Assembly (NCBI GenBank): GCA_002305115.1
Contig: DBQF01000003.1
Location: 65,338-129,337, forward strand
Direction: 5' to 3'
DNA from: a candidate division WWE3 bacterium UBA1401
Lineage (GTDB): Bacteria > Patescibacteriota > WWE3 > UBA101185 > UBA10185
DNA length: 64,000 bases
In this document: positions 1 through 63,329 of the stretch, piece by piece
Position numbering within the stretch: position 1 is the stretch's first letter
Layout of the letters: each line of letters starts with the position of its first letter
The notes under the pieces: model-generated
What the model was told of the DNA's origin: nothing
Database searches by the model: none
What the model saw: only the letters and a program-made list of their open reading frames with translations
Program-made: the position numbers and the translations under genes

Positions 1-1274
1 AATACTTCGGTAAAAATCGCCAGCCCAACCAGGTACGCTAACGCCTCAATGCGAAGTAAAGAAACACCCACAGCCGCAAAAAATACTAGGGGTATAACTA
101 AAAATACTAAAAAAGTAGGCACAACAGTAAGCTGATTGAAAACGGGCAACCCTAAAATAAACTCTGAAACAGGGTTGTAGGTAACTAGCACACTTCCCAA
201 AATCAGAGACACTACAGCAAAAAGTGAAAAACCAGACCAGTACTTCCTGCTAAGAAATAACCCCACTGCCCCTATACAACATATGACTATACCAATAAGC
301 CCTGGAGTAAAGATACCAAAACCAAAACTTTGCGCGCGTGGAATAAAGTAACTTAAAAATTCAGCTGGCATAATCTTCTCGGCACGCCAGCCGGACACAG
401 CACCGGAGAACCTGCTTGCTTCCAAAGTTAAGACATTAAATGCAGGAAGCAACTTTATTGCAAAAAGTGAGAAGCTTAAAAAAGCTAATAACACAAACCC
501 AGGTAGCCTTCTTAAAAATTTACGGAGAGTCATAACCAGATACACCCCAAGCAGCAGTAAAGAAACAACTGCTAAATTGCTATTCCCCTCAAATAAGAAG
601 GCTACAGGAATAGCAAGCAACACCAGGTCACGTAACTTGCCTGATTCCAAATATTTTTGCGCAAATAAAAATAGTAAAGGCAACCACTTGTATGCAAATA
701 AATACTCAACACCTACACCAGGTGAGAGCCGCATAGTAACAAAGCCATTAAAACTAAATACTATTGCACCTGCAAAGCTAGCGCCTCTGGAAAAATTTAA
801 GTTCCTAAGTAAAAGAAAGGCAAAAGCACTGCCCAGAAAGACCTGTAATAGTATAAAAATGTTAAAGGCATGATAAATAGAGGAGTCGTATAAAAAAAGC
901 CATGCGAACGGTGAGAAATAAGGGGCGAGGGGATTGGCAAAAGCGTCAAAACCCCCACCAAACCTAGAATTCCAAAAAGGAGGAAGTTGGTACTTGGTGA
1001 GTGCTTCATGGAAAAACTGCATCAAAGTAACCTGAATGTTATTGAAATCCGGTTGTGCCAATGTTTGACCCGCAAACAAAAGTTTGTTGAAAAATACCAC
1101 CGTCAATACAAATAACAACAGCATCTGCTTCCAGGAAGCTTTTAACTCAAACCACAAGTGCTTTACGATAAACAAGAAATAGAGAACCGGGGCAACCAAA
1201 AGGAAAACAGACAAGAACTTGTTAACACAAGATAAGACTGTAAACACCCGTACATAGTAACTCAAACTTTGCAA
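1..1274 (-). CDS. Polytopic membrane protein, YfhO-like / GT-C-like. It is partial (the 3' end runs off the window) and has a non-ATG start, so the ORF track misses it.
   Basis: The minus-strand frame is open from a TGA at 1296-1298 down to position 1. Candidate starts are TTG at 1274 or 1265 and GTG at 1247. The translation reads ...KHLWFELKASWKQMLLLFVLTVVFFNKLLFAGQTLAQPDFNNIQVTLMQFFHEALTKYQLPPFWNSRFGGGFDAFANPLAPYFSPFAWLF... and is followed by many hydrophobic helices. The first-loop pattern resembles the YfhO family. Confidence 0.55.
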   Translation of the reverse strand, partial: MQSLSYYVRVFTVLSCVNKFLSVFLLVAPVLYFLFIVKHLWFELKASWKQMLLLFVLTVVFFNKLLFAGQTLAQPDFNNIQVTLMQFFHEALTKYQLPPFWNSRFGGGFDAFANPLAPYFSPFAWLFLYDSSIYHAFNIFILLQVFLGSAFAFLLLRNLNFSRGASFAGAIVFSFNGFVTMRLSPGVGVEYLFAYKWLPLLFLFAQKYLESGKLRDLVLLAIPVAFLFEGNSNLAVVSLLLLGVYLVMTLRKFLRRLPGFVLLAFLSFSLFAIKLLPAFNVLTLEASRFSGAVSGWRAEKIMPAEFLSYFIPRAQSFGFGIFTPGLIGIVICCIGAVGLFLSRKYWSGFSLFAVVSLILGSVLVTYNPVSEFILGLPVFNQLTVVPTFLVFLVIPLVFFAAVGVSLLRIEALAYLVGLAIFTEV

Positions 1275-1284
1275 TAAGAAAACC

Positions 1285-6698: not shown

Positions 6699-7817
6699 CT
6701 AGTCAATGGGGTGCCAGATGTGGAAACCATCTTTCCACTGCCGTAAATACCAACATACAAACACCCAGTATCCAAAATTCAAAACATAAAACAAAAACCT
6801 ATACTTTCCTGTAAACAGCCGGTAAGTCCCAACTAAAAATATGGGCATACCCCAAATAGGATAAGTTCTGTTTAAGACCGGGGTAAACAAGTAAAAAGTC
6901 AAAAAAGGAAACACGGCAAGCGCAAACTTATCCTTGATCCATCCTAACTTTTCCAAAACAATAGCAACAAGCCAGCCGGATACAATCGATGCAATTGAAT
7001 AAAATTCAAAAGAAATAATCCTAAACAATTCCACATGATAAAAATAACTAATGTAATAAAGATAAGGTCTGCCTTGCACAAATCTATTACCGTGAACAAA
7101 CACCGAGCCCTTTAAAAAAGTTTCCAAATCAGTATAAAAAGGCACACTCACCAACAAAAAAATATAAGCGGCAGCCAAAATAAACCTGATTCTATCTTTT
7201 GTTCTCAGCAAAAAAATAAACCCCAAAATTACAGGAAAAGTCTTAAAAATCACAGACAAAGCATATAAAACACCACTCGTCACTTCATCTTTAGCTAGGT
7301 AAAAAAGCGACCACACCATTAGGGCGATAGTTACAGCGTCATATCCAAGCAAAGACTCCTTTATATAAAAATAGGGGTTAAATAGCCATAAAACAGTACT
7401 AAATAAAAGCGCCCAATGATCTTTCTTATAAAAAATAACAACAAAAAAACCCACCACTGAAAGAGTAGCCAGAATTCCAGGAAACTTCATGAGGAAAGGT
7501 AGGGCTAAATTTATACCTAACGAATAGCTAAAAAATAAACTTGCTATCTTTAAAACCGAGTTCATATACATAATACCTGGCAAATAAGCATAACCTTTAT
7601 TGCCAGGGTCAGCGTCTAGCGTAGCATAAGAGGCAACAGTCCAGGCGTAAGGGTTTTTACCAAGCAATAACTCATCAACGGCTCGTATATGCGTAGAGTA
7701 GTCTCCACCGGCGCCACCATCTAAAGCAATAACCAAACGTTTATATGTACCAACTACCACTACAACAATGGTTAAAAACAGCAATAATTTATCTAGCAGT
7801 CTGGAATAACGACCCAT
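6699..7817 (-). CDS. Polytopic glycosyltransferase, GT87 (ex-DUF2029)-like. It is a paralogue of 20484..21590.
   Basis: The 372-aa protein is polytopic. It shares KGYAY[LM]P..[ML]Y and LFTPVLNRTY with 20484..21590. Confidence 0.6.
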   Translation of the reverse strand: MGRYSRLLDKLLLFLTIVVVVVGTYKRLVIALDGGAGGDYSTHIRAVDELLLGKNPYAWTVASYATLDADPGNKGYAYLPGIMYMNSVLKIASLFFSYSLGINLALPFLMKFPGILATLSVVGFFVVIFYKKDHWALLFSTVLWLFNPYFYIKESLLGYDAVTIALMVWSLFYLAKDEVTSGVLYALSVIFKTFPVILGFIFLLRTKDRIRFILAAAYIFLLVSVPFYTDLETFLKGSVFVHGNRFVQGRPYLYYISYFYHVELFRIISFEFYSIASIVSGWLVAIVLEKLGWIKDKFALAVFPFLTFYLFTPVLNRTYPIWGMPIFLVGTYRLFTGKYRFLFYVLNFGYWVFVCWYLRQWKDGFHIWHPID

Positions 7818-10658: not shown

Positions 10659-10666
10659 CACTTAGA

Positions 10667-10690
10667 CCCGAGGCTAAAGCCTCGGGTTAA
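10667..10690 (+). repeat. Conserved hairpin element CCCGAGGCTAAAGCCTCGGGTTAA (copy 1)
   Basis: An 8-bp stem with a TAAA-centred loop and a GTTAA tail sits between convergent gene ends. Confidence 0.8.
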
Positions 10691-23380: not shown

Positions 23381-23442
23381 ATAAATGAAACCTTACCCCT
23401 ACACTCCCCATCTTCCTTGGCTGGCTAAATACTATAATGCCA

Positions 23443-23466
23443 CCGGAGGCTAAAGCCTCCGGTTAA
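23443..23466 (+). repeat. Conserved hairpin element (copy 2), CCGGAGGCTAAAGCCTCCGGTTAA
   Basis: I read it directly. Confidence 0.8.
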
Positions 23467-23480
23467 TCTGGTCAATAACG

Positions 23481-23503
23481 TAACCCGAGGCTTTAGCCTC
23501 GGG
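23481..23503 (-). repeat. Conserved hairpin element (copy 3, inverted), TAACCCGAGGCTTTAGCCTCGGG
   Basis: It is the reverse complement of the copy 1 consensus. Confidence 0.8.
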
Positions 23504-27605: not shown

Positions 27606-28157
27606 CTAGCTATAAATTCTCGTAAACGTCCATACATCAAATCTAACAGCCACTACATCGGTACTATCGGGAAGATCAAGAAATGAACACGTGAAAGAAG
27701 ATAACAAACCGCTTCTTGCAATCTCTTCCTGAGCATAACCGATACCTCTGACAGCCTGACCAATCGCACCTGCACCTACTGCCTGAACCTCTATGTATCC
27801 AAATTGTTGTAATTTATCAACAATAGTGGCGCGCAATTTGATAGGAGAAGTAAGCCTGCTAACTCTCAAGGGGGGAGCTGGAACAAAGCTTATGGATAAA
27901 ATAACAACTTTCCTCGCATCAGCACTCTCCGTCACACCAAGCGAGGTAGATAGATCGGCACGGACTCTATGTAAAGCCAGAACTTGCCTTAATGACCTCA
28001 TAGCCAAAGCTCTAACAGCTATAGTTACAGCCTCTGCCCCCACTGCCTGCAATACAACAGATATCTGAAAGTGTTCGTTTAAGGCAACCTGAAGGATAGA
28101 CTGAGCTAAGTCGACAACGTGCGTGGACCTACTTACCCGCATCTCAACTATAGTCAT
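27606..28157 (-). CDS. Tandem SpoVS-domain protein
   Basis: It has two SpoVS-like halves. The second contains IEVQAVGAGAIGQAVRGIGYA and the first contains VVLQAVGAEAVTIAVRALAM. Confidence 0.6.
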   Translation of the reverse strand: MTIVEMRVSRSTHVVDLAQSILQVALNEHFQISVVLQAVGAEAVTIAVRALAMRSLRQVLALHRVRADLSTSLGVTESADARKVVILSISFVPAPPLRVSRLTSPIKLRATIVDKLQQFGYIEVQAVGAGAIGQAVRGIGYAQEEIARSGLLSSFTCSFLDLPDSTDVVAVRFDVWTFTRIYS

Positions 28158-29523: not shown

Positions 29524-29611
29524 TGGTGGGCGAGGAGGGACTTGAACCCTCACGGGATTATCTCCCAACGGATTTTAAGTCCGTCGCGTATGCCAATTCC
29601 GCCACTCGCCC
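29524..29611 (-). tRNA. tRNA-Leu(UAA), long variable arm, CCA encoded
   Basis: The reverse complement reads gggcgag...acgga-ctTAAaa-tccgt...ctcgcccacca. Confidence 0.9.
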
Positions 29612-29665
29612 ATGTATTTAAGCATTATATCAACTATTAGATCTCTTACAAGCAATTTTTTACAA

Positions 29666-29680
29666 GAGGGTCGGACCTTT
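29666..29680. promoter_or_regulatory. GGTCNGACC palindrome copy 1 (gagGGTCGGACCttt)
   Basis: I read it directly. Confidence 0.6.
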
Positions 29681-29779
29681 ACTTAACCTAAGCACCACGG
29701 GAAAAACATAGAATGAAGCGGAAAAATAATCACACAATGTTGAAACTAGAAGGGTAAAAACACCGCAGCTACAGTGTTT

Positions 29780-29798
29780 GGAAAGGTCTGACCCTTCC
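29780..29798. promoter_or_regulatory. GGTCNGACC palindrome copy 2 (ggaaaGGTCTGACCcttcc)
   Basis: I read it directly. Confidence 0.6.
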
Positions 29799-29893
29799 AA
29801 ATACTTGCACTAAAGCAAAAACAGCTAACAATCATTCTAAAAATATGAAATTTTCAAGATAACGCAGCAAGAATCGGGCAACTACAATCAAAA

Positions 29894-29910
29894 GAAAGGT
29901 CTGACCCTCC
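29894..29910. promoter_or_regulatory. GGTCNGACC palindrome copy 3 (gaaaGGTCTGACCctcc)
   Basis: I read it directly. Confidence 0.6.
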
Positions 29911-29958
29911 ATCCTCGCCAGCATTCCGTTTTTTTCAACATACCTTTATAATAGACCC

Positions 29959-30966
29959 GTGCCAAAAACAGTCTCACAAGAACAACTTCAAACAGTCATC
30001 AGCAAATTCAATGCAGATATCACCGAGTACGAAATCATTGAAATGGACAAATACCAAGGCTGGAGCTCTACCCACCTATACCTTGTTGTATCAGCGGATA
30101 ACAACTATATACTAAAAGCCAAAACCGAAAACCAGATAGCGGGCTATGATAACGAAGTCAAAATCTGTAACGCCTTAAGACAAATTCACATTCAAACCCG
30201 CTGTCCAATCCTAACCACAGATGGGAAAATCTTTTATAAAGATAAAGACTTTTACTGGTGCCTAATGACCTATATTGCTGGAGGAACTTCACACGTAAAT
30301 GAATACACTGAGACCACTGTTAGCTCCTTGGCCAAATGCATAGAAGAATATATTCGTATATCAAACACTGAAAGCAAGTTAGCTATGCTAGACTTAAAAA
30401 CCCGAGCAGCACAAAAAGACATTCAGGCACTGGATCAATTTATTAAGGAACAGCAAACACTGGAAAAACTAAAAATAGTAAAAGGAGATACCATCAAAGA
30501 AATATATACAGTACTCAAGGGCGGTTTTAAACAAGAACTTGAGCAGATTAAACAAACCTCCTTAATTCACAATGACATAAACCCAAGAAACATATTAATT
30601 GACCACGCTTCCAAGGAAGTAATTAGCTTAATCGACTGGGATCACGGCTGTTATGGGAGAACTCTTAAGGATATCAGTGATGCCGTTGCTATTTTTTATG
30701 ACTACCTTCCCATAACTAAAGCTAACACTTATAAAAAGCAGTTTTATGCCAACTTAACAGCACCTTGGTTTACAACCATGGACCCAGAAACTGTTGAACT
30801 CGCGTTTTTGTTTTATTACACCGTAAGTAAGTGGCGAACCATACTTTTTTATCTGGATTTATTAAAAAAGTATGACAATAAGTATGGGGAAGAAAAACGG
30901 TTTATAAATGAAATGAAGCAAACTTATACAAAATGGGCTGATATTATCATTTCATTTTATAGTTAG
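29959..30966 (+). CDS. APH/choline-kinase-family phosphotransferase (protein-kinase-like fold)
   Basis: It has the Brenner motif LIHNDINPRNILI followed by LIDWDHG. The start is GTG, 6 nt after TATAAT. Confidence 0.8.
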   Translation: MPKTVSQEQLQTVISKFNADITEYEIIEMDKYQGWSSTHLYLVVSADNNYILKAKTENQIAGYDNEVKICNALRQIHIQTRCPILTTDGKIFYKDKDFYWCLMTYIAGGTSHVNEYTETTVSSLAKCIEEYIRISNTESKLAMLDLKTRAAQKDIQALDQFIKEQQTLEKLKIVKGDTIKEIYTVLKGGFKQELEQIKQTSLIHNDINPRNILIDHASKEVISLIDWDHGCYGRTLKDISDAVAIFYDYLPITKANTYKKQFYANLTAPWFTTMDPETVELAFLFYYTVSKWRTILFYLDLLKKYDNKYGEEKRFINEMKQTYTKWADIIISFYS

Positions 30967-47264: not shown

Positions 47265-47341
47265 GGGCTCCTAGCTCAGTTGGTTAGAGCGTCGCAGTGA
47301 CATTGCGGAGGTCACAGGTTCGAGACCTGTGGAGCCCACCA
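47265..47341 (+). tRNA. tRNA-Val(GAC), CCA encoded
   Basis: Acceptor gggctcc/ggagccc and anticodon loop gtGACat. Confidence 0.9.
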
Positions 47342-47405
47342 CGCTAAGCGTGGTGGAGGCTCGCTAAGCGAGCCCACCAGAAAAGTTCCCTGCAGGCAGA
47401 TGCCC

Positions 47406-53371: not shown

Positions 53372-53394
53372 TAAGCCAATGATAGCATAGGATC

Positions 53395-53426
53395 GGAGGT
53401 CGGACCCGGCACCGGGTCCGACCTCC
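53395..53426. promoter_or_regulatory. Two GGTCNGACC cores forming a perfect 15-bp inverted repeat
   Basis: The sequence is ggaggtcggacccgg-ca-ccgggtccgacctcc. Confidence 0.65.
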
Positions 53427-53469
53427 CAACATTGTTAATTGTCAATAAATGCTTTACAATAGGAAAAAC

Positions 53470-55242
53470 ATGTATACAAACGAGGACTTAATAAAACTCA
53501 GGCACTCTACCGAACATGTGGCGCAAACAGCCATCAGAAAAATATTTCCTGATATTAAAAATGTGGTAGGGCCAGCAATAGAGAATGGCTTTTTCTTTGA
53601 CTTTGCAACAAGCGAAAAAATCACACCAGAGTTATTTCCAAGAATAGAAACAGAAATGCAGAAAATAATAGATGCGGATCTACCAATAACCTGCAAAGAA
53701 ATAAGCTATGAAGAAGCTAAACAACTCTTCGTGGATAATCCATACAAGCAAGAAAAAATTGAAGAAATAAAAACCTCTGCAGAACCATTTATAGTTTATG
53801 AAATTGGCACTGCGGAAAGTGAATACTACAACGTAGACTTATGTGCGGGGCCACATCTTGAGAGTACTGGCCAGATAAAGGCATTTAAACTGCTGAGCGT
53901 GGCAGGAGCTTATTACAAAGGCAGCGAAGAAAATGAAATGTTGACCAGAATTTACGGCACCGCTTTTTATTCCAAGGAAGAACTTGATAACTATTTAAGA
54001 CTTTTGGAAGAAGCAAAAGCCAGGGATCACAGAAAATTAGGCGCCGAACTAGACTTATTTGTGTTTTCGGAACTTGTAGGTCCCGGATTACCATTATTTA
54101 CCCCGAAAGGTACAGTTATAAAAGAGGAGCTACAAAAATACGTAGAAAAAATCTGCAGAACTTACGGCTTTGACAAAGTTATCACACCACATTTGGCAAA
54201 AATAGAATTATATGAGCTTTCGGGGCATGCCAAAAAATTCGCAGATGAATTATTCCATGTAACTTCCATCAAAGGCCACGAATTTGTCATGAAACCAGTA
54301 CAATGCCCGCATCAGACTCAAATTTATGCGTCTAGACCAAGATCATATAGAGAATTGCCAATAAGATACATGGAATCGGAAAAACAGTATAGGGCCGAAA
54401 AACCAGGGGAAGTAAGTGGACTTTCCAGAGTTTACGCCATTACAGTAGAAGACGGTCACTCTTTCTGCACTGTTGACCAGGTAAGGGATGAAGTTAAAGG
54501 CATGGTTAACATCATTAAAGAGTTCTACAGCGTACTGGGGTTATGGGGTAACCACTGGGTATCCTTGTCTGTAAGAGATTATAAACACCCGGAAAAATAT
54601 ATTGGTGAACCGGAGGACTGGAATGTATGTGAAAAAATGCTGCAAGAAGTTTCCGACGAAATGGGATTAGATGCCATCAGAAAAGAAGGCGAAGCGGCAC
54701 TCTACGGACCAAAACTAGATTTCATGTTTAAAGACGCATTAGGTAAAGAAATTCAAATTCCCACTGTGCAACTAGACTTTGCAACACCAAAAAGATTTGA
54801 GCTAAACTATATTGACAGTAGCGGTGAGAAACAGTACCCGGTTATGGTGCATCGCGCAATTTTAGGCTCATACGAACGCTTCATGGCACTGATTATTGAA
54901 CACTTTGCCGGGGCATTTCCCGTATGGCTGGCGCCAGTACAAGTGGAAATAATTCCCATTAGCGAAACCCAGATGGAATATGCGCAAGAAGTGAAAAAGA
55001 TTCTTCTAGCAAGTGACCTAAGGGCAGAAATTGACACTAAAGACGCCACCATGCAGTCTAAGATTAGAGATGCACAACTTTTAAAAATTCCTTATATGGT
55101 TATAGTAGGGGATAAAGAAAAGCAAAATAACACTGTAAGTGTAAGATTAAGAGACGGTACGCAGCAAAATAATGTAACTCTTGCTGAATTTGTGGATAGA
55201 ATCAACAATATCTATTTGACCAAAAGCCTAGGTTTATGGTAA
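53470..55242 (+). CDS. thrS: Threonine--tRNA ligase (no N-terminal TGS domain)
   Basis: It contains RHSTEHV, GPAIENGFFFDF, RDHRKLG and a class II core. I start at ATG 53470, downstream of TTGTTA-N17-TACAAT (the track starts at 53449). Confidence 0.92.
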   Translation: MYTNEDLIKLRHSTEHVAQTAIRKIFPDIKNVVGPAIENGFFFDFATSEKITPELFPRIETEMQKIIDADLPITCKEISYEEAKQLFVDNPYKQEKIEEIKTSAEPFIVYEIGTAESEYYNVDLCAGPHLESTGQIKAFKLLSVAGAYYKGSEENEMLTRIYGTAFYSKEELDNYLRLLEEAKARDHRKLGAELDLFVFSELVGPGLPLFTPKGTVIKEELQKYVEKICRTYGFDKVITPHLAKIELYELSGHAKKFADELFHVTSIKGHEFVMKPVQCPHQTQIYASRPRSYRELPIRYMESEKQYRAEKPGEVSGLSRVYAITVEDGHSFCTVDQVRDEVKGMVNIIKEFYSVLGLWGNHWVSLSVRDYKHPEKYIGEPEDWNVCEKMLQEVSDEMGLDAIRKEGEAALYGPKLDFMFKDALGKEIQIPTVQLDFATPKRFELNYIDSSGEKQYPVMVHRAILGSYERFMALIIEHFAGAFPVWLAPVQVEIIPISETQMEYAQEVKKILLASDLRAEIDTKDATMQSKIRDAQLLKIPYMVIVGDKEKQNNTVSVRLRDGTQQNNVTLAEFVDRINNIYLTKSLGLW

Positions 55243-55270
55243 CTTAGTTGAGTTTCGGAGGATAACAGTT

Positions 55271-55777
55271 ATACCAAAGTATTACAAAACAAATTACAGT
55301 ATAAAAGAACCACAAGTTAGGGTAATTAAAGCAAACGGGGAGAACTTAGGAGTTTTAGACACGCGACAAGCTATAAGGCTTGCAGAGAATGAAGGTAAAG
55401 ATCTGGTTTTAATCGCAGAAGAAGCAAATCCGCCGGTAGCCAAAATCTTAGAGTTTAACAAGTTTTTATACGATGAACGTAAAAAGGAATCACAGGCGAA
55501 AGCCAGATCTAAAAAGAGTGAACTGAAGGAATTAAGATTAGGCCCATCCATTGGCGAGGGTGATCTGCAGATTAGAATCAAAAGGGCAAGAGAGTTCTTG
55601 GAAGAAGGAAATACTGTAAGGTTGACGGTAGAATTACGCGGCAGAGAAAAAGCCTACCCTGAAATCGGCAGGGAGAAACTTGAGAGAATAACGCGAGAAC
55701 TTGAAGATATAGCTAAACCGGATAAAGATATTGAGCTAAAGGGCAATAGAATGATGGTAGTTTTAATAAGAAAGTAA
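55271..55777 (+). CDS. infC: Translation initiation factor IF-3, ATA start (absent from the ORF track)
   Basis: GGAGG lies 9 nt upstream. The translation reads (M)PKYYKTNYSIKEPQVRVIKANGENLGVLDTRQAIRLAENEGKDLVLIAEEANPPVAKILEFNKFLYDERKK.... Confidence 0.88.
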   Translation: MPKYYKTNYSIKEPQVRVIKANGENLGVLDTRQAIRLAENEGKDLVLIAEEANPPVAKILEFNKFLYDERKKESQAKARSKKSELKELRLGPSIGEGDLQIRIKRAREFLEEGNTVRLTVELRGREKAYPEIGREKLERITRELEDIAKPDKDIELKGNRMMVVLIRK

Positions 55778-55780
55778 TAT

Positions 55781-55993
55781 ATGCCAAAATTAAAAACTAA
55801 AAAGACATTATTAAAAAGAGTAAAAATAACCAAGTCAGGTAAAATCTTGAAAAAACAGATTAGAATTGGACATTTGCGTAGAAAGTGGAGTGCCAATAAA
55901 AAAAGTAGAAAGTTACGAATAGAAGAACAAGATAATACAGGGCACAAAAAGATGTTTAGAGCCTTGCTTGCTAAGCATGGAAAGGGAATATAA
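55781..55993 (+). CDS. rpmI: 50S ribosomal protein L35
   Basis: It begins [22 protein letters not shown]. Confidence 0.92.
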
Positions 55994-56388: not shown

Positions 56389-56417
56389 TTAACCCGAGAC
56401 TTTAGTCTCGGGTTTTT
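56389..56417 (+). terminator. Conserved hairpin element (copy 5, inverted) acting as the rplT terminator
   Basis: The sequence is TTAACCCGAGACTTTAGTCTCGGG followed by ttttt. Confidence 0.7.
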
Positions 56418-62009: not shown

Positions 62010-62035
62010 AGAGAGATTATAGCAGATATGTTAGG

Positions 62036-62052
62036 GGAGGGTCCGACCCTCC
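62036..62052. promoter_or_regulatory. GGTCNGACC palindrome copy 6 (ggagGGTCCGACCctcc)
   Basis: It is a 17-bp palindrome lying 14 nt upstream of the minus-strand TATAAT for the PBP gene. Confidence 0.65.
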
Positions 62053-62091: not shown

Positions 62092-62132
62092 GAAAGGTCC
62101 GACCTTCCAAAAAATTGTTATCGTGATAAAAT
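62092..62132 (+). promoter_or_regulatory. GGTCNGACC copy 7 (gaaaGGTCCGACCttcc) abutting the tyrS promoter TTCCAA-N16-TGaTAAAAT
   Basis: The -10 box at 62127-62132 lies 6 nt before ATG 62139. Confidence 0.55.
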
Positions 62133-62138
62133 CATCTT

Positions 62139-63329
62139 ATGCCAGAAATCATTACAGACGAGCAGAAAATCGACGAAATTCTCACCCGGGGAGTGCACGA
62201 GATCTTTGTTAAAGAAGAACTCAAAAAGAAACTCATGAGCGGCAAACAACTGCATCTGAAACTAGGTGTAGACGTAACAGGCCCAAACTTACACTTAGGC
62301 CACACAGTAATCCAAAGAAAAATCCGAGACTTCCAGGAGCTGGGACACAGAGTTACACTCATCATAGGTGATTTTACAACCTTAGTAGGCGACCATTCCG
62401 ATAAAGTCGATATGCGAGGAGAGATAACACAAGAACAAATAAAACATAATGAAGAACACTTTCAAGACCAATTCTTCAAAACCGTTATAAAGGATCAGGC
62501 TGAAGTTCGCCACAACTCGGAATGGCTAAGCAAACTAAGCTTTGCAGATGTAATAGAACTGGCTAAACAATTCACTGTAGCCCAAATGCTAGACAGGGAA
62601 ACTTTCCTTTTAAGATACCAAGCTAAAAAGCCAATTGGCCTAGATGAATTTCTGTATCCCCTTATGCAAGGCTACGATTCTGTGGCGCTAACTAGCGACG
62701 TGGAATTTGGCGGTACAGATCAAACCTTTAATTTACTGGCCGGCAGAAAACTCATGGAGTATTTTGGCAAACCGCCGCAAGACGCCGTTGTCATGAAACT
62801 GCTTACTGGCAGTGATGGCAGACCTATGGGTAAAAGCCTCATGAACTTTATTCCGGTATTAGATACTGCAGAAGATATGTATGGAAAGATTATGGCAATT
62901 GTAGATGAGGTGATTTTTGAGTATTTTGAACTGGTGACACGAGTACCCGTGCCGGAAATTGAGGAAATGCGGAAAGCGGTAACCGAAGGTGCCAACCCAA
63001 TGGAATTTAAGAAACGTTTAGCAAATGAAATTGTGGAATTTTACCACGGCAAAGAGGCAGCAACAGAAGCACAAGAATACTTTGAACAAACAGTACAACA
63101 AGGTATGACCCCACAAAATATTCCAGAAATAGCTTTGCCCGAAAACACCCAAACTCTTGAGGTAGCGTCACTAATTTCTAAAACGTCAAGATCTGAAACC
63201 AGAAGAGTTATTGAGCAAGGCGGGTTTAGTGTAAACAACACAAAAATAACAGATCCACAACAACTACTGGAGTTAAAGACAGGCGATATTATAAAGTTCG
63301 GTAAGCGAGAATTTGCAAAAGTAAAATGA
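62139..63329 (+). CDS. tyrS: Tyrosine--tRNA ligase
   Basis: It has the HIGH motif (NLHLGH), a KMSKS-like motif (PMGKSL) and a C-terminal S4 domain. Confidence 0.9.
   Translation: MPEIITDEQKIDEILTRGVHEIFVKEELKKKLMSGKQLHLKLGVDVTGPNLHLGHTVIQRKIRDFQELGHRVTLIIGDFTTLVGDHSDKVDMRGEITQEQIKHNEEHFQDQFFKTVIKDQAEVRHNSEWLSKLSFADVIELAKQFTVAQMLDRETFLLRYQAKKPIGLDEFLYPLMQGYDSVALTSDVEFGGTDQTFNLLAGRKLMEYFGKPPQDAVVMKLLTGSDGRPMGKSLMNFIPVLDTAEDMYGKIMAIVDEVIFEYFELVTRVPVPEIEEMRKAVTEGANPMEFKKRLANEIVEFYHGKEAATEAQEYFEQTVQQGMTPQNIPEIALPENTQTLEVASLISKTSRSETRRVIEQGGFSVNNTKITDPQQLLELKTGDIIKFGKREFAKVK

What the first reader, a model, noticed from the sequence alone, without database searches (positions are those of the whole stretch)
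29612..29958. 347-nt non-coding spacer with three copies of a GRAAGGTCNGACCYTCC palindrome
The spacer between tRNA-Leu(UAA) (minus) and the kinase-like gene (plus) is unusually long for this compact genome. It contains three copies of a motif with core GGTC-N-GACC, at 29669-29677, 29785-29793 and 29898-29906. Two copies are extended to gaaaGGTCTGACCcttcc/ctcc. By eye I found the core only 7 times in the window, and every copy lies in a promoter-bearing spacer (see 53395 and 62036). Two explanations fit. It could be the operator of an unidentified dimeric DNA-binding protein. Alternatively it could be a 7-bp-stem, 3-nt-loop RNA hairpin family.
Basis: seen in the sequence. Interest (0 to 1): 0.65.

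Follow-up and report, generated by a model that had tools for sequence, protein, structure and literature searches.

The report
Repeated 17-bp palindrome at divergent promoters
A 17-base palindromic DNA word (GRARGGTC-N-GACCYTYC) recurs only between back-to-back promoters in this small uncultured (CPR/WWE3-like) bacterial genome, mostly next to protein-synthesis genes; it is most likely the docking site of a still-unidentified dimeric regulator, not an RNA hairpin.

Summary
GGTCNGACC occurs 7 times in the window against 0.28 expected, with 0 of 100 shuffles reaching 7. An 8th copy lies 2.2 kb past the window end. All 8 copies sit in four divergent spacers; such spacers make up 1.7% of the window.

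The unit is a 17-bp dyad built from two G-R-A-R-GGTC half-sites. Half-sites on their own are not enriched.

Three results argue against a hairpin:
- Within a copy, the flanks are no more complementary than flanks paired between different copies (17/32 against 16.2±2.5).
- The predicted hairpins are weak.
- The flanking genes look leaderless, with a -10 box 6-9 nt before the start codon, so the spacers are probably not transcribed.

Each of the eight flanking promoters has a site centred about 30-57 bp upstream of its predicted start. Seven of the eight transcription units encode translation machinery.

The 347-nt spacer is long because a ~114-nt unit carrying one site was duplicated in tandem.

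The closest known sites are GntR/FadR-type operators, for example the E. coli LldR box AAnTGGTCnGACCAnTT. I found no such regulator gene in the 83 kb I could reach. The nearest relatives (ThrRS 68-70% identical, same gene order) lack the motif.

Best reading: a lineage-specific operator of an unidentified dimeric DNA-binding protein, confidence about 0.5. Interest is moderate.

The parts
29665..29681 (.). Site 1, aGAGGGTCGGACCTTTa. Its centre (29673) is about 56 bp upstream of the predicted tRNA-Leu transcription start.
29781..29797 (.). Site 2, GAAAGGTCTGACCCTTC, part of the 25-nt near-palindrome TTTGGAAAGGTCTGACCCTTCCAAA. It sits in the middle of the spacer, far from both promoters.
29894..29910 (.). 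Site 3, GAAAGGTCTGACCCTCC. Its centre (29902) is about 57 bp upstream of the predicted start of the kinase-like gene.
29678..29897 (.). Two homologous inter-site segments (29678-29784 and 29794-29897). They are an old tandem duplication of a ~114-nt unit carrying one site, and this accounts for the spacer's length.
   Evidence: repeat families D1 and D2, spacings 113 and 115; (alignment score 2 against -17.2±5.1, 0 of 2000 shuffles reach it)
29624..29651 (-). Predicted tRNA-Leu promoter, TTGTAA-16-TG-n-TATAAT.
29947..29952 (+). TATAAT -10 box 6 nt before the GTG start of the kinase-like gene (leaderless type).
53394..53427 (.). Sites 4 and 5, two abutting 17-bp sites with centres at 53402 and 53419, 17 bp apart. 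Together they form a 32-bp palindrome, GGAGGTCGGACCCGGcaCCGGGTCCGACCTCC. Site 4 lies over the -35 position of TruB; site 5 ends 8 bp before the ThrRS -35 box.
53379..53384 (-). TruB -10 box, TG-n-TATCAT on the minus strand, 7 nt before the ATG.
53432..53460 (+). ThrRS promoter, TTGTTA-17-TACAAT. The ATG at 53470 follows 9 nt later.
62036..62052 (.). Site 6, GGAGGGTCCGACCCTCC, a perfect 17-bp palindrome. Its centre (62044) is about 35 bp upstream of the start of the PBP1A(-pheS-pheT) unit.
62092..62108 (.). Site 7, GAAAGGTCCGACCTTCC. Its centre (62100) is about 39 bp upstream of the TyrRS start and it overlaps the -35 position.
62016..62021 (-). PBP1A -10 box, TG-n-TATAAT on the minus strand, 6 nt before the ATG.
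62127..62132 (+). TyrRS -10 box, TG-n-TAAAAT, 6 nt before the ATG.

Best explanation
The motif is a DNA-level element: a 17-bp dyad-symmetric site, GRARGGTC-N-GACCYTYC.

It most likely serves as the operator of an unidentified dimeric DNA-binding protein. Each monomer would read one G-R-A-R-G-G-T-C half-site, and the close half-site spacing resembles winged-helix GntR/FadR-type regulators.

One to three sites sit in the shared upstream region of divergent, mostly leaderless promoters. Their centres lie 30-57 bp upstream of the predicted starts. A bound dimer would therefore cover or abut the -35 region of one or both promoters and could regulate both genes of a pair.

The flanking units are mostly translation machinery: tRNA-Leu, TruB, ThrRS-IF3-L20, PBP1A-PheST, TyrRS, RsmD and L32-NusB-RNaseIII-S16-TrmD. 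A small regulon tied to the translation apparatus is therefore plausible.

Shown: the existence, enrichment, anatomy and placement of the sites. Inferred: protein binding, the identity of the protein, the direction of regulation, and the operon structures.
For: 1. Enrichment and placement. There are 7 copies against 0.28 expected and 8 copies in 82.8 kb. All lie in 4 divergent spacers, and none in coding, convergent or tandem spacers.
2. The dyad is the unit. The 16 half-sites give G(12) R(14) A(12) R(16) GGTC. Isolated RARGGTC half-sites are not enriched: 25 found against 22±5 expected, and 10 of the 25 belong to full sites.
3. The symmetry is at consensus level only. Within-copy flank complementarity is 17/32, against 16.2±2.5 for permuted partners (p=0.43). 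The A:C mismatches that look like G-U wobble follow from purine degeneracy in each half-site.
4. The spacers are probably not transcribed. 30 of 76 ORFs have a TANNNT box 4-9 nt before the start codon, and only 15 have an SD-like sequence. The flanking genes show TATAAT, TAAAAT or TATCAT 6-7 nt before the start (9 nt for ThrRS TACAAT).
5. Hairpins are weak. As single-stranded DNA, single copies fold at -0.6 to -6.9 kcal/mol. As RNA they fold at -1.2 to -12.4 kcal/mol, mostly not better than shuffles.
6. In the long spacer, where placement is free, the two outer sites lie at nearly the same distance from their promoters, about -56 and -57.
7. The core equals that of experimentally defined 17-bp GntR/FadR-type boxes. 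The E. coli LldR box is AAnTGGTCnGACCAnTT, with two boxes per target region (PMC10272880).
8. The genome's terminator hairpins are a separate family confined to convergent spacers.
Against: - No candidate regulator was found. Pfam scans of essentially all ORFs in the window, plus the precomputed Pfam marks on the extensions, show only an OmpR-type response regulator, which normally binds direct repeats. There is no GntR or other obvious helix-turn-helix protein.
- The motif is absent from the orthologous TruB/ThrRS and PBP/TyrRS spacers of the nearest relatives and from loci carrying the kinase homologue. There is therefore no phylogenetic footprint.
- The distance from site to promoter is not fixed. 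The distance from site centre to the -10 box is 18, 18, 23, 27, 33, 36, 44 and 45 bp.
- Two of the three copies in the flagged spacer owe their existence to a tandem duplication, so they are not independent evidence.
- Only 83 kb of a roughly 1-Mb genome could be examined.
- Three of the four spacers lie in a region rich in translation genes, so the functional coherence may be positional.
Confidence: 0.5

Rival explanations
1. A lineage-specific, REP/MITE-like palindromic repeat that spread or duplicated in intergenic DNA and has no dedicated regulator. It would be selfish or structural DNA tolerated in promoter spacers.
For: - It is absent from the orthologous spacers of the nearest relatives. 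Their PBP/TyrRS spacer is only 41-64 nt, against 129 nt here.
- Local tandem duplication generated copies in the 347-nt spacer.
- GC-rich palindromes, some with the same GGTCNGACC core, occur as apparent in-frame insertions or at gene junctions in other CPR contigs: L037, L051, L006 and L007 and L190.
- A second stereotyped palindrome family exists in this genome.
Against: - The copies share only the 17-bp dyad; there is no longer common element.
- There is no within-copy complementarity beyond the consensus, and several copies cannot form a stable hairpin.
- The distribution is the opposite of REP/BIME elements, which from my own knowledge sit in transcribed 3' or intercistronic regions. Here all copies are in untranscribed divergent promoter regions and none is in the 17 convergent or 47 tandem junctions.
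- The core is not enriched in 1.33 Mb of other CPR loci: 8 copies against a mean of 7.3 for same-composition palindromes.
- No transposase or RAYT-like gene appears in the Pfam scans of the window.
Confidence: 0.2
2. An architectural DNA site, not a gene-specific operator. It could bind a nucleoid-associated or topology-related protein, or act as a small cruciform that insulates two back-to-back promoters from each other's negative supercoiling.
For: - The copies are found only in divergent spacers, 4 of 4, and never in the 24 tandem spacers of at least 40 nt.
- The distance to the promoters varies.
- The TruB/ThrRS pair forms a 32-bp perfect palindrome with a 15-bp stem, -18.5 kcal/mol as DNA, z=-5.8.
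- The neighbouring genes are heterogeneous in part (a kinase and PBP1A as well as translation genes).
Against: - Single copies are too short and weak to extrude, at -0.6 to -6.9 kcal/mol.
- Five other divergent spacers of at least 40 nt lack the site.
- The strict invariance of GGTC/GACC and the purine pattern of the half-sites point to sequence-specific recognition.
- The preference for divergent spacers may simply reflect that divergent spacers must carry two promoters each in a compact, operon-rich genome.
Confidence: 0.15
3. An RNA hairpin family (7-bp stem, 3-nt loop) acting in transcripts, for example as a terminator or stabiliser of upstream-antisense or read-through RNA.
For: - In the four asymmetric copies every flank mismatch is A:C on one strand and G:U on the other. 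One strand therefore folds better: -4.9 against -1.4, -12.4 against -8.5, -6.3 against -1.2, and -6.6 against -2.9 kcal/mol.
- The simple scanner flags three copies as terminator-like on the strand pointing away from the nearest gene.
Against: - The G:U pattern follows automatically from R/R degeneracy of the half-sites.
- The z-scores of the folds are mostly -0.4 to -2.
- U-tracts are absent or poor.
- The spacers lie upstream of leaderless starts on both sides, so no known transcript covers them.
- Rfam finds nothing in the spacer apart from weak, far sub-threshold matches overlying the adjacent tRNA-Leu gene.
- The genuine terminator hairpins of this genome are longer (9-12 bp stems), belong to a different family and lie in convergent spacers.
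Confidence: 0.08

Closest known systems
Operators of GntR-family, FadR-subfamily regulators (E. coli LldR box AAnTGGTCnGACCAnTT; PdhR; FadR; C. glutamicum LldR)
   Same: - A 17-bp dyad with an odd, single-base centre.
- The central nine bases GGTCnGACC are identical.
- There is often more than one box per target region.
- The boxes are located in promoter regions, frequently between divergent genes (PMC10272880).
   Different: - The flanking positions differ. Here R precedes GGTC in 16 of 16 half-sites (consensus GRAR), where LldR, PdhR and FadR have T (AAnT).
- No GntR-family gene was found in the 83 kb examined.
- The targets here are translation-apparatus genes, not lactate, pyruvate or fatty-acid metabolism.
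- The host is a CPR/WWE3-like bacterium with leaderless promoters.
REP/BIME and other short palindromic intergenic repeats
   Same: A short GC-rich palindrome, richer in GC than the 40% GC genome, repeated in intergenic DNA, sometimes as inverted pairs.
   Different: - REPs lie in transcribed intercistronic or 3' regions and keep their stems by complementarity (my own knowledge).
- These sites lie only between divergent promoters, show no within-copy compensation and are only 17 bp long.
Intrinsic (bidirectional) terminator hairpins
   Same: An inverted repeat with G+C-rich arms. Three copies pass a lenient terminator scan.
   Different: - They are in the wrong place, upstream of promoters and not downstream of genes.
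- The stems are short and the U-tracts poor.
- The genome has its own terminator family, CCCGAGGCT-WW-AGCCTCGGG, in convergent spacers.
Leader-RNA control of aminoacyl-tRNA synthetase genes (T-box and others) in related CPR genomes
   Same: The target class is the same. Several more distant CPR relatives carry what read like T-box leaders upstream of thrS (by-eye reading of the sequences; Rfam was not run on those loci). The closest WWE3-like relatives carry a conserved CAACCCCTTAGGGGG hairpin leader.
   Different: In this genome thrS has essentially no leader: the -10 box lies 9 nt before the ATG. The repeated element lies upstream of the promoter, so any control would act at the DNA level and not in the RNA.

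Membership tests
GntR/FadR-subfamily operator | Dyad symmetry around a GT-N3-AC core with a single central base (…GGTCnGACC…), total length about 15-17 bp | tested here: met
   All 8 copies carry GGTCNGACC. The conserved dyad spans 17 bp, as does the LldR box.
GntR/FadR-subfamily operator | T immediately 5' of GGT and A 3' of ACC (TGGT…ACCA), as in the LldR, PdhR and FadR boxes | tested here: not met
   Position -1 is A (9) or G (7) in the 16 half-sites and is never T.
GntR/FadR-subfamily operator | A cognate GntR-family winged-helix regulator encoded in the genome, often next to one of its sites | tested here: inconclusive
   There is no PF00392-type hit or other helix-turn-helix regulator in the window or its extensions, apart from an OmpR-type response regulator. 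About 90% of the genome could not be reached.
GntR/FadR-subfamily operator | Demonstrated protein binding (EMSA, footprint or SELEX) | not testable with these tools
   This needs an experiment.
REP/BIME-like palindromic repeat | Each copy can form a stable imperfect stem-loop, with the stems kept by complementarity | tested here: not met
   As single-stranded DNA the copies at 29669 and 29898 fold at -0.7 and -0.6 kcal/mol. Within-copy flank complementarity equals that of permuted partners.
REP/BIME-like palindromic repeat | Location in transcribed extragenic regions (3' ends, intercistronic) | tested here: not met
   All 8 copies are in divergent spacers upstream of leaderless starts.
REP/BIME-like palindromic repeat | An associated RAYT/IS200-type transposase in the genome | tested here: inconclusive
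   None appears among the Pfam results for the 83 kb.
Intrinsic terminator | A G+C-rich stem followed by a U-tract, downstream of a gene | tested here: not met
   No gene ends upstream of any copy. Tails such as ACTTAACC, AAACACTG and CCCTAACA lack a U-run. Three lenient scanner hits rely on the motif's own TTTC.
Known structured RNA (Rfam) | A match to a curated covariance model | tested here: not met
   Only tRNAs reach the gathering score in the window. Nothing lies within the spacer itself at E<=10; the only sub-threshold matches overlie the adjacent tRNA-Leu gene.
CRISPR/TIGR-like array | Regularly spaced repeats separated by unrelated spacers, with associated cas/tas genes | tested here: not met
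   There are only 3 repeats at 116 and 113 nt. The two 'spacers' are homologous to each other. No cas- or tas-like domain is nearby.

The most novel reading that the evidence does not exclude
In a CPR lineage whose mRNAs are largely leaderless, and which therefore cannot host T-box or other leader riboswitches, one DNA-binding regulator has taken over coordinated control of the translation apparatus. Its targets would include aminoacyl-tRNA synthetases, a tRNA gene, tRNA/rRNA-modifying enzymes and a ribosomal-protein operon. It would act through a 17-bp operator placed between back-to-back promoters. Relatives that keep leader RNAs on thrS lack the operator.
Probability: 0.15. Interest if true: 0.7.

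Novelty: new member of a known kind. Interest (0 to 1): 0.4.

Why it matters
Almost nothing is known about transcriptional regulation in CPR/Patescibacteria. They have very few recognisable transcription factors and cannot be cultured alone.

This is a clean, statistically solid cis-element that marks promoters of translation genes. It gives a concrete handle: a 17-mer bait for DAP-seq or EMSA, and a search pattern for the regulator's own promoter.

If the regulon reading holds, it would show how a leaderless, reduced genome replaces RNA-leader control of aminoacyl-tRNA synthetase genes with protein-DNA control. If it is only a proliferating palindrome, it is a minor genome-structure curiosity.

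Tried and rejected
- Rfam on the whole window and, permissively, on the spacer found only tRNAs at threshold, plus weak sub-threshold matches overlying the tRNA-Leu gene.
- A search for a regulator in the window (Pfam on about 70 ORFs, including a relaxed E<=1 pass on small unknown proteins) found no GntR or other helix-turn-helix protein. It found only an OmpR-type response regulator and a sub-threshold ParB-HTH hit. The two unknown proteins of about 230 aa next to the spacer do not look like regulators.
- Conservation in relatives:
  - 80 ThrRS loci from GTDB genomes, three loci with kinase homologues and four syntenic WWE3-like loci show no motif at the orthologous spacers.
  - The relatives are distant: at most 70% identity for ThrRS and at most 57% for the kinase.
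- The idea that GGTCNGACC palindromes form a CPR-wide family was rejected. The core is not enriched in 1.33 Mb of other CPR loci, although L051 has its own triple.
- The metagenome scan with GAAAGGTCNGACCYTYC gave mostly single, chance-level hits in GC-rich contigs.
- A fixed promoter-element reading (an alternative -35 box or an ECF-type box) was rejected because the distance to the -10 box varies from 18 to 45 bp.
- G-U wobble as evidence for RNA was rejected. It follows from purine degeneracy.
- Extending the genome leftwards failed: three look-ups found no record.
- A literature search for the motif, or for GntR, in Patescibacteria found nothing relevant.

Full report
**Observation**

The flagged region is as described. 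tRNA-Leu(UAA) lies on the minus strand at 29524-29611. A 347-nt spacer follows (29612-29958), and then an APH-family kinase-like ORF on the plus strand. GGTCNGACC starts at 29669, 29785 and 29898.

In the whole window the core occurs 7 times. Dinucleotide-preserving shuffles give 0.28±0.55, and none of 100 reaches 7. Among all 64 palindromes with the same arm composition, GGTC-N-GACC has 7 copies, the next best has 2, and the mean is 0.44. Allowing one core mismatch adds nothing similar.

**Source genome and how far I could look**

- The window comes from a Patescibacteria (CPR) MAG. It matches a 105.5-kb Logan contig of SRR5321237 and a 194-kb NCBI contig.
- The nearest ThrRS sequences are 68-70% identical and include a 'candidate division WWE3' genome.
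- Walking right with exact-protein look-ups gave window-equivalent coordinates up to 82,821.
- That extension holds one more copy, gaaaGGTCGGACCtttc, at window-equivalent 66207. It lies between RsmD(-) and rpmF/L32(+). The following one-strand pilus operon has none.
- Walking left failed.

**Distribution**

My crude gene map gives 81 genes. Intergenic DNA is 7.0% of the window and divergent spacers are 1.7%. All eight copies lie in four divergent spacers:
- tRNA-Leu/kinase
- TruB/ThrRS
- PBP1A/TyrRS
- RsmD/L32

None lies in the 17 convergent or 47 tandem junctions. Five other divergent spacers of at least 40 nt lack it.

Convergent spacers carry a different stereotyped palindrome family: ACCCGAGGCTaaAGCCTCGGGT and relatives at 10666, 23442, 23484 and 56391, plus two further hairpins at 47336 and 47358. 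These look like the genome's terminators. The two families are segregated by spacer type.

**Anatomy**

I read each copy as two half-sites running towards the centre. The 16 half-sites give G(12/16) R(14/16) A(12/16) R(16/16) G G T C, and positions further out are random. The element is therefore a 17-bp dyad, GRARGGTC-N-GACCYTYC.
- The centre base is free (G, T, T, G, C, C, C, G).
- Isolated RARGGTC half-sites are not enriched: 25 against 22±5, and 10 of them are inside full sites.
- At TruB/ThrRS two 17-bp sites abut exactly, with centres 17 bp apart, and together make a 32-bp palindrome.

**DNA site or hairpin?**

Three results bear on this.
- *Complementarity.* Within a copy, the four flank positions pair in 17 of 32 cases. 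When right halves are exchanged between copies the mean is 16.2±2.5 (p=0.43). The symmetry is a property of the consensus, not of the individual copy. That is what a dyad-symmetric protein site predicts and not what selection for a stem predicts. The A:C mismatches that become G:U on the other strand, which at first looked like an RNA signature, follow from purine degeneracy at two half-site positions.
- *Fold strength.* As single-stranded DNA the single copies fold at -0.6 to -6.9 kcal/mol. As RNA they fold at -1.2 to -12.4 kcal/mol, and most are no better than shuffles. Only the 32-bp double site is strong (-18.5 kcal/mol, z=-5.8).
- *Transcription.* The genome is largely leaderless. 30 of 76 ORFs have a TANNNT box ending 4-9 nt before the start codon, many of them canonical (TATAAT, TACAAT, TAGAAT), against 15 with an SD-like sequence. 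The genes flanking the sites follow this pattern:
  - kinase: TATAAT 6 nt before GTG
  - PBP1A: TG-n-TATAAT 6 nt before ATG
  - TyrRS: TG-n-TAAAAT 6 nt before ATG
  - TruB: TG-n-TATCAT 7 nt before ATG
  - ThrRS: TTGTTA-17-TACAAT 9 nt before ATG
  - tRNA-Leu: TTGTAA-16-TG-n-TATAAT
  - L32: TTGACA-17-TATAGT, plus a second promoter-like site

. So the spacers lie upstream of both starts and are probably not transcribed. This is an inference from sequence, with no expression data.

Rfam finds nothing in the spacer itself; the only sub-threshold matches overlie the adjacent tRNA-Leu gene.

**Placement relative to promoters**

I took the transcription start as 7 nt after the -10 box. Every flanking promoter then has a site centre between about -30 and -57:

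| Promoter | Site centre |
|---|---|
| TruB | -30 |
| RsmD | -30 |
| PBP1A | -35 |
| TyrRS | -39 |
| L32 (P1) | -44 |
| ThrRS | -48 |
| tRNA-Leu | -56 |
| kinase | -57 |

The distance is not fixed, so the motif is not a core promoter element. In short spacers this closeness is nearly unavoidable. In the 347-nt spacer, where placement is free, the two outer sites sit at almost the same distance from their respective promoters. That is suggestive, but it is a post hoc observation.

**Why the spacer is long**

The segments between the sites (29678-29784 and 29794-29897) are homologous. The global alignment score is 2 against -17.2±5.1 for shuffles, and 0 of 2000 shuffles reach it. Repeat families D1 and D2 have spacings of 113 and 115 nt (alignment). 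The spacer grew by tandem duplication of a ~114-nt unit carrying one site. Sites 2 and 3 are therefore not independent, and the length of the spacer needs no functional explanation. The small ORFs in the spacer are unconvincing.

**Relatives**

- *80 ThrRS loci from species-representative genomes (1.23 Mb).* These have GGTCNGACC palindromes only sporadically, and in other contexts:
  - L034: an intergenic 27-nt palindrome.
  - L037: a 37-nt palindrome inside miaA.
  - L051: three copies at the hypF/hypC/hypD junctions, including a pair 17 bp apart.
- *All non-own loci.* The core is not enriched: 8 copies against a mean of 7.3 for same-composition palindromes. It is specific to this lineage.
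- *Closest relatives (L086-L089).* They keep the gene order 272aa-TruB(-)-ThrRS(+)-IF3-L35-L20-PheST-PBP(-)-TyrRS(+)-RecG (PheST is on the plus strand in L086, on the minus strand in L087/L088) but have no copy. Their PBP/TyrRS spacers are 41-64 nt in L087 and L088, against 129 nt here. Their thrS carries a leader with a conserved CAACCCCTTAGGGGG hairpin, which is not in Rfam.
- *More distant CPR relatives.* They carry what read like T-box leaders on thrS (a by-eye reading, not checked with Rfam).
- *Loci with kinase homologues (55-57% identity).* None has a copy.

But no relative closer than family or order level exists in the databases I could search.

**Function**

Seven of the eight flanking transcription units encode translation machinery:
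- tRNA-Leu
- TruB
- ThrRS-IF3-L20
- PheS and PheT downstream of PBP1A
- TyrRS
- RsmD
- L32-NusB-RNase III-S16-KH-TrmD

. The operon structures are inferred from strand and spacing. Three of the four spacers lie in one region rich in translation genes, and two tRNA-bearing divergent spacers lack the site. The coherence is therefore suggestive only.

**Comparison with known systems**

A full-text search for the core retrieved the GntR/FadR-subfamily literature. The E. coli LldR box is the 17-bp palindrome AAnTGGTCnGACCAnTT, present twice per target region (PMC10272880). PdhR, FadR and C. glutamicum LldR use the same core. The present dyad shares the length, the odd centre and the nine central bases. 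It replaces the flanking T/A with R/Y in all 16 half-sites, so it is not the same specificity.

No GntR-type or other obvious helix-turn-helix regulator is encoded in the 83 kb. Membership in that family cannot be claimed. 'Works like a FadR-type operator' is the most economical reading.

The site differs from REP/BIME-type repeats in location and in lacking compensation. It differs from terminators in location and tail. It is not an array, because the 'spacers' between copies are homologous to each other.

**Rivals**

- *A selfish or structural palindromic repeat (0.2).* This is kept alive by the lineage specificity, the local duplication, and GC-rich palindromes that look like in-frame insertions in other CPR contigs: L037, L006, L007, and L190, which has two copies bounding a ~75-nt segment inside an ORF.
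- *An architectural or insulator role between divergent promoters (0.15).* This fits the divergent-only distribution.
- *An RNA hairpin (0.08).* This is the least supported.

**Verdict**

This is a real, strongly non-random, lineage-specific 17-bp dyad at divergent leaderless promoters. It is most likely the operator of an unidentified dimeric regulator (confidence about 0.5). The kind is known; the instance is new, in a group whose regulation is essentially uncharted. Interest is moderate.

Noticed in passing
window 10666-10687, 23442-23463, 23484-23503, 56391-56414, 47336-47374: A second stereotyped palindrome family (ACCCGAGGCTaaAGCCTCGGGT and variants, core GRCT-WW-AGYC) is confined to convergent spacers. 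These are probably bidirectional terminators, mostly without a clear U-tract. They are strictly separated from the GGTCNGACC family.
   Followed up: partly
window, whole (e.g. 29947-29961, 62016-62009, 62127-62141, 6699-7817 start): The genome looks largely leaderless. 30 of 76 ORFs have a TANNNT box 4-9 nt upstream of the start codon, often a canonical TATAAT, TACAAT or TAGAAT. Only 15 have an SD-like sequence.
   Followed up: partly
L086 9740-9770; L087 4855-4880; L088 3050-3075: The closest (WWE3-like) relatives share a conserved hairpin, CAACCCC(T/C)TAGGGGG, in a 180-470-nt leader upstream of thrS. It is not in Rfam and may be an undescribed thrS leader element. This genome lacks it.
   Followed up: partly
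L002, L005, L006, L008, L009, L010, L015, L023 (about 200 nt upstream of ThrRS): More distant CPR relatives carry T-box-like leaders (…GGGTGGAACCGCG…) upstream of thrS, read by eye and not confirmed with Rfam. The window genome has a spacer of only 77-98 nt with no leader.
   Followed up: no
L037 11740-11776; L006 5273-5310; L007 5973-6011; L190 3092-3175: GC-rich perfect palindromes or double inverted hairpins sit inside ORFs (miaA, gatB, a PMT-like gene and others) in several AT-rich CPR contigs, apparently in frame. They resemble Rickettsia palindromic elements.
   Followed up: partly
L051 18644-18669 and 18917-18925: In another CPR-like MAG (CG2_30_37_16), TTGCAAGGGTCSGACCCTAACAA units sit at the hypF/hypC and hypC/hypD junctions. 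One pair is 17 bp centre to centre, the same geometry as window 53398/53415.
   Followed up: partly
L095 1727-1743; L160 1129-1145; L172 about 5548: Three contigs, at least one of them from a human-gut metagenome, share a 24-nt palindrome, CGGGGAAAGGTCNGACCTTTCCCG, with a variable centre base and similar flanks.
   Followed up: no
window 27606-28157 (-): A 183-aa protein with two matched stretches to the SpoVS domain, divergent from tRNA-Arg. Its role in a non-sporulating CPR bacterium is unknown.
   Followed up: no
window 55243-55990: infC is called only as a 59-aa IF3_C fragment in the Logan annotation. The gene probably starts at a non-canonical codon (AUU-type), as in other bacteria, so ORF lists miss its N-terminal part.
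   Followed up: no
window 874-1284: The longest 'intergenic' gap in my crude gene map (411 nt, convergent) was not examined. It may hold an unannotated small gene or RNA.
   Followed up: no
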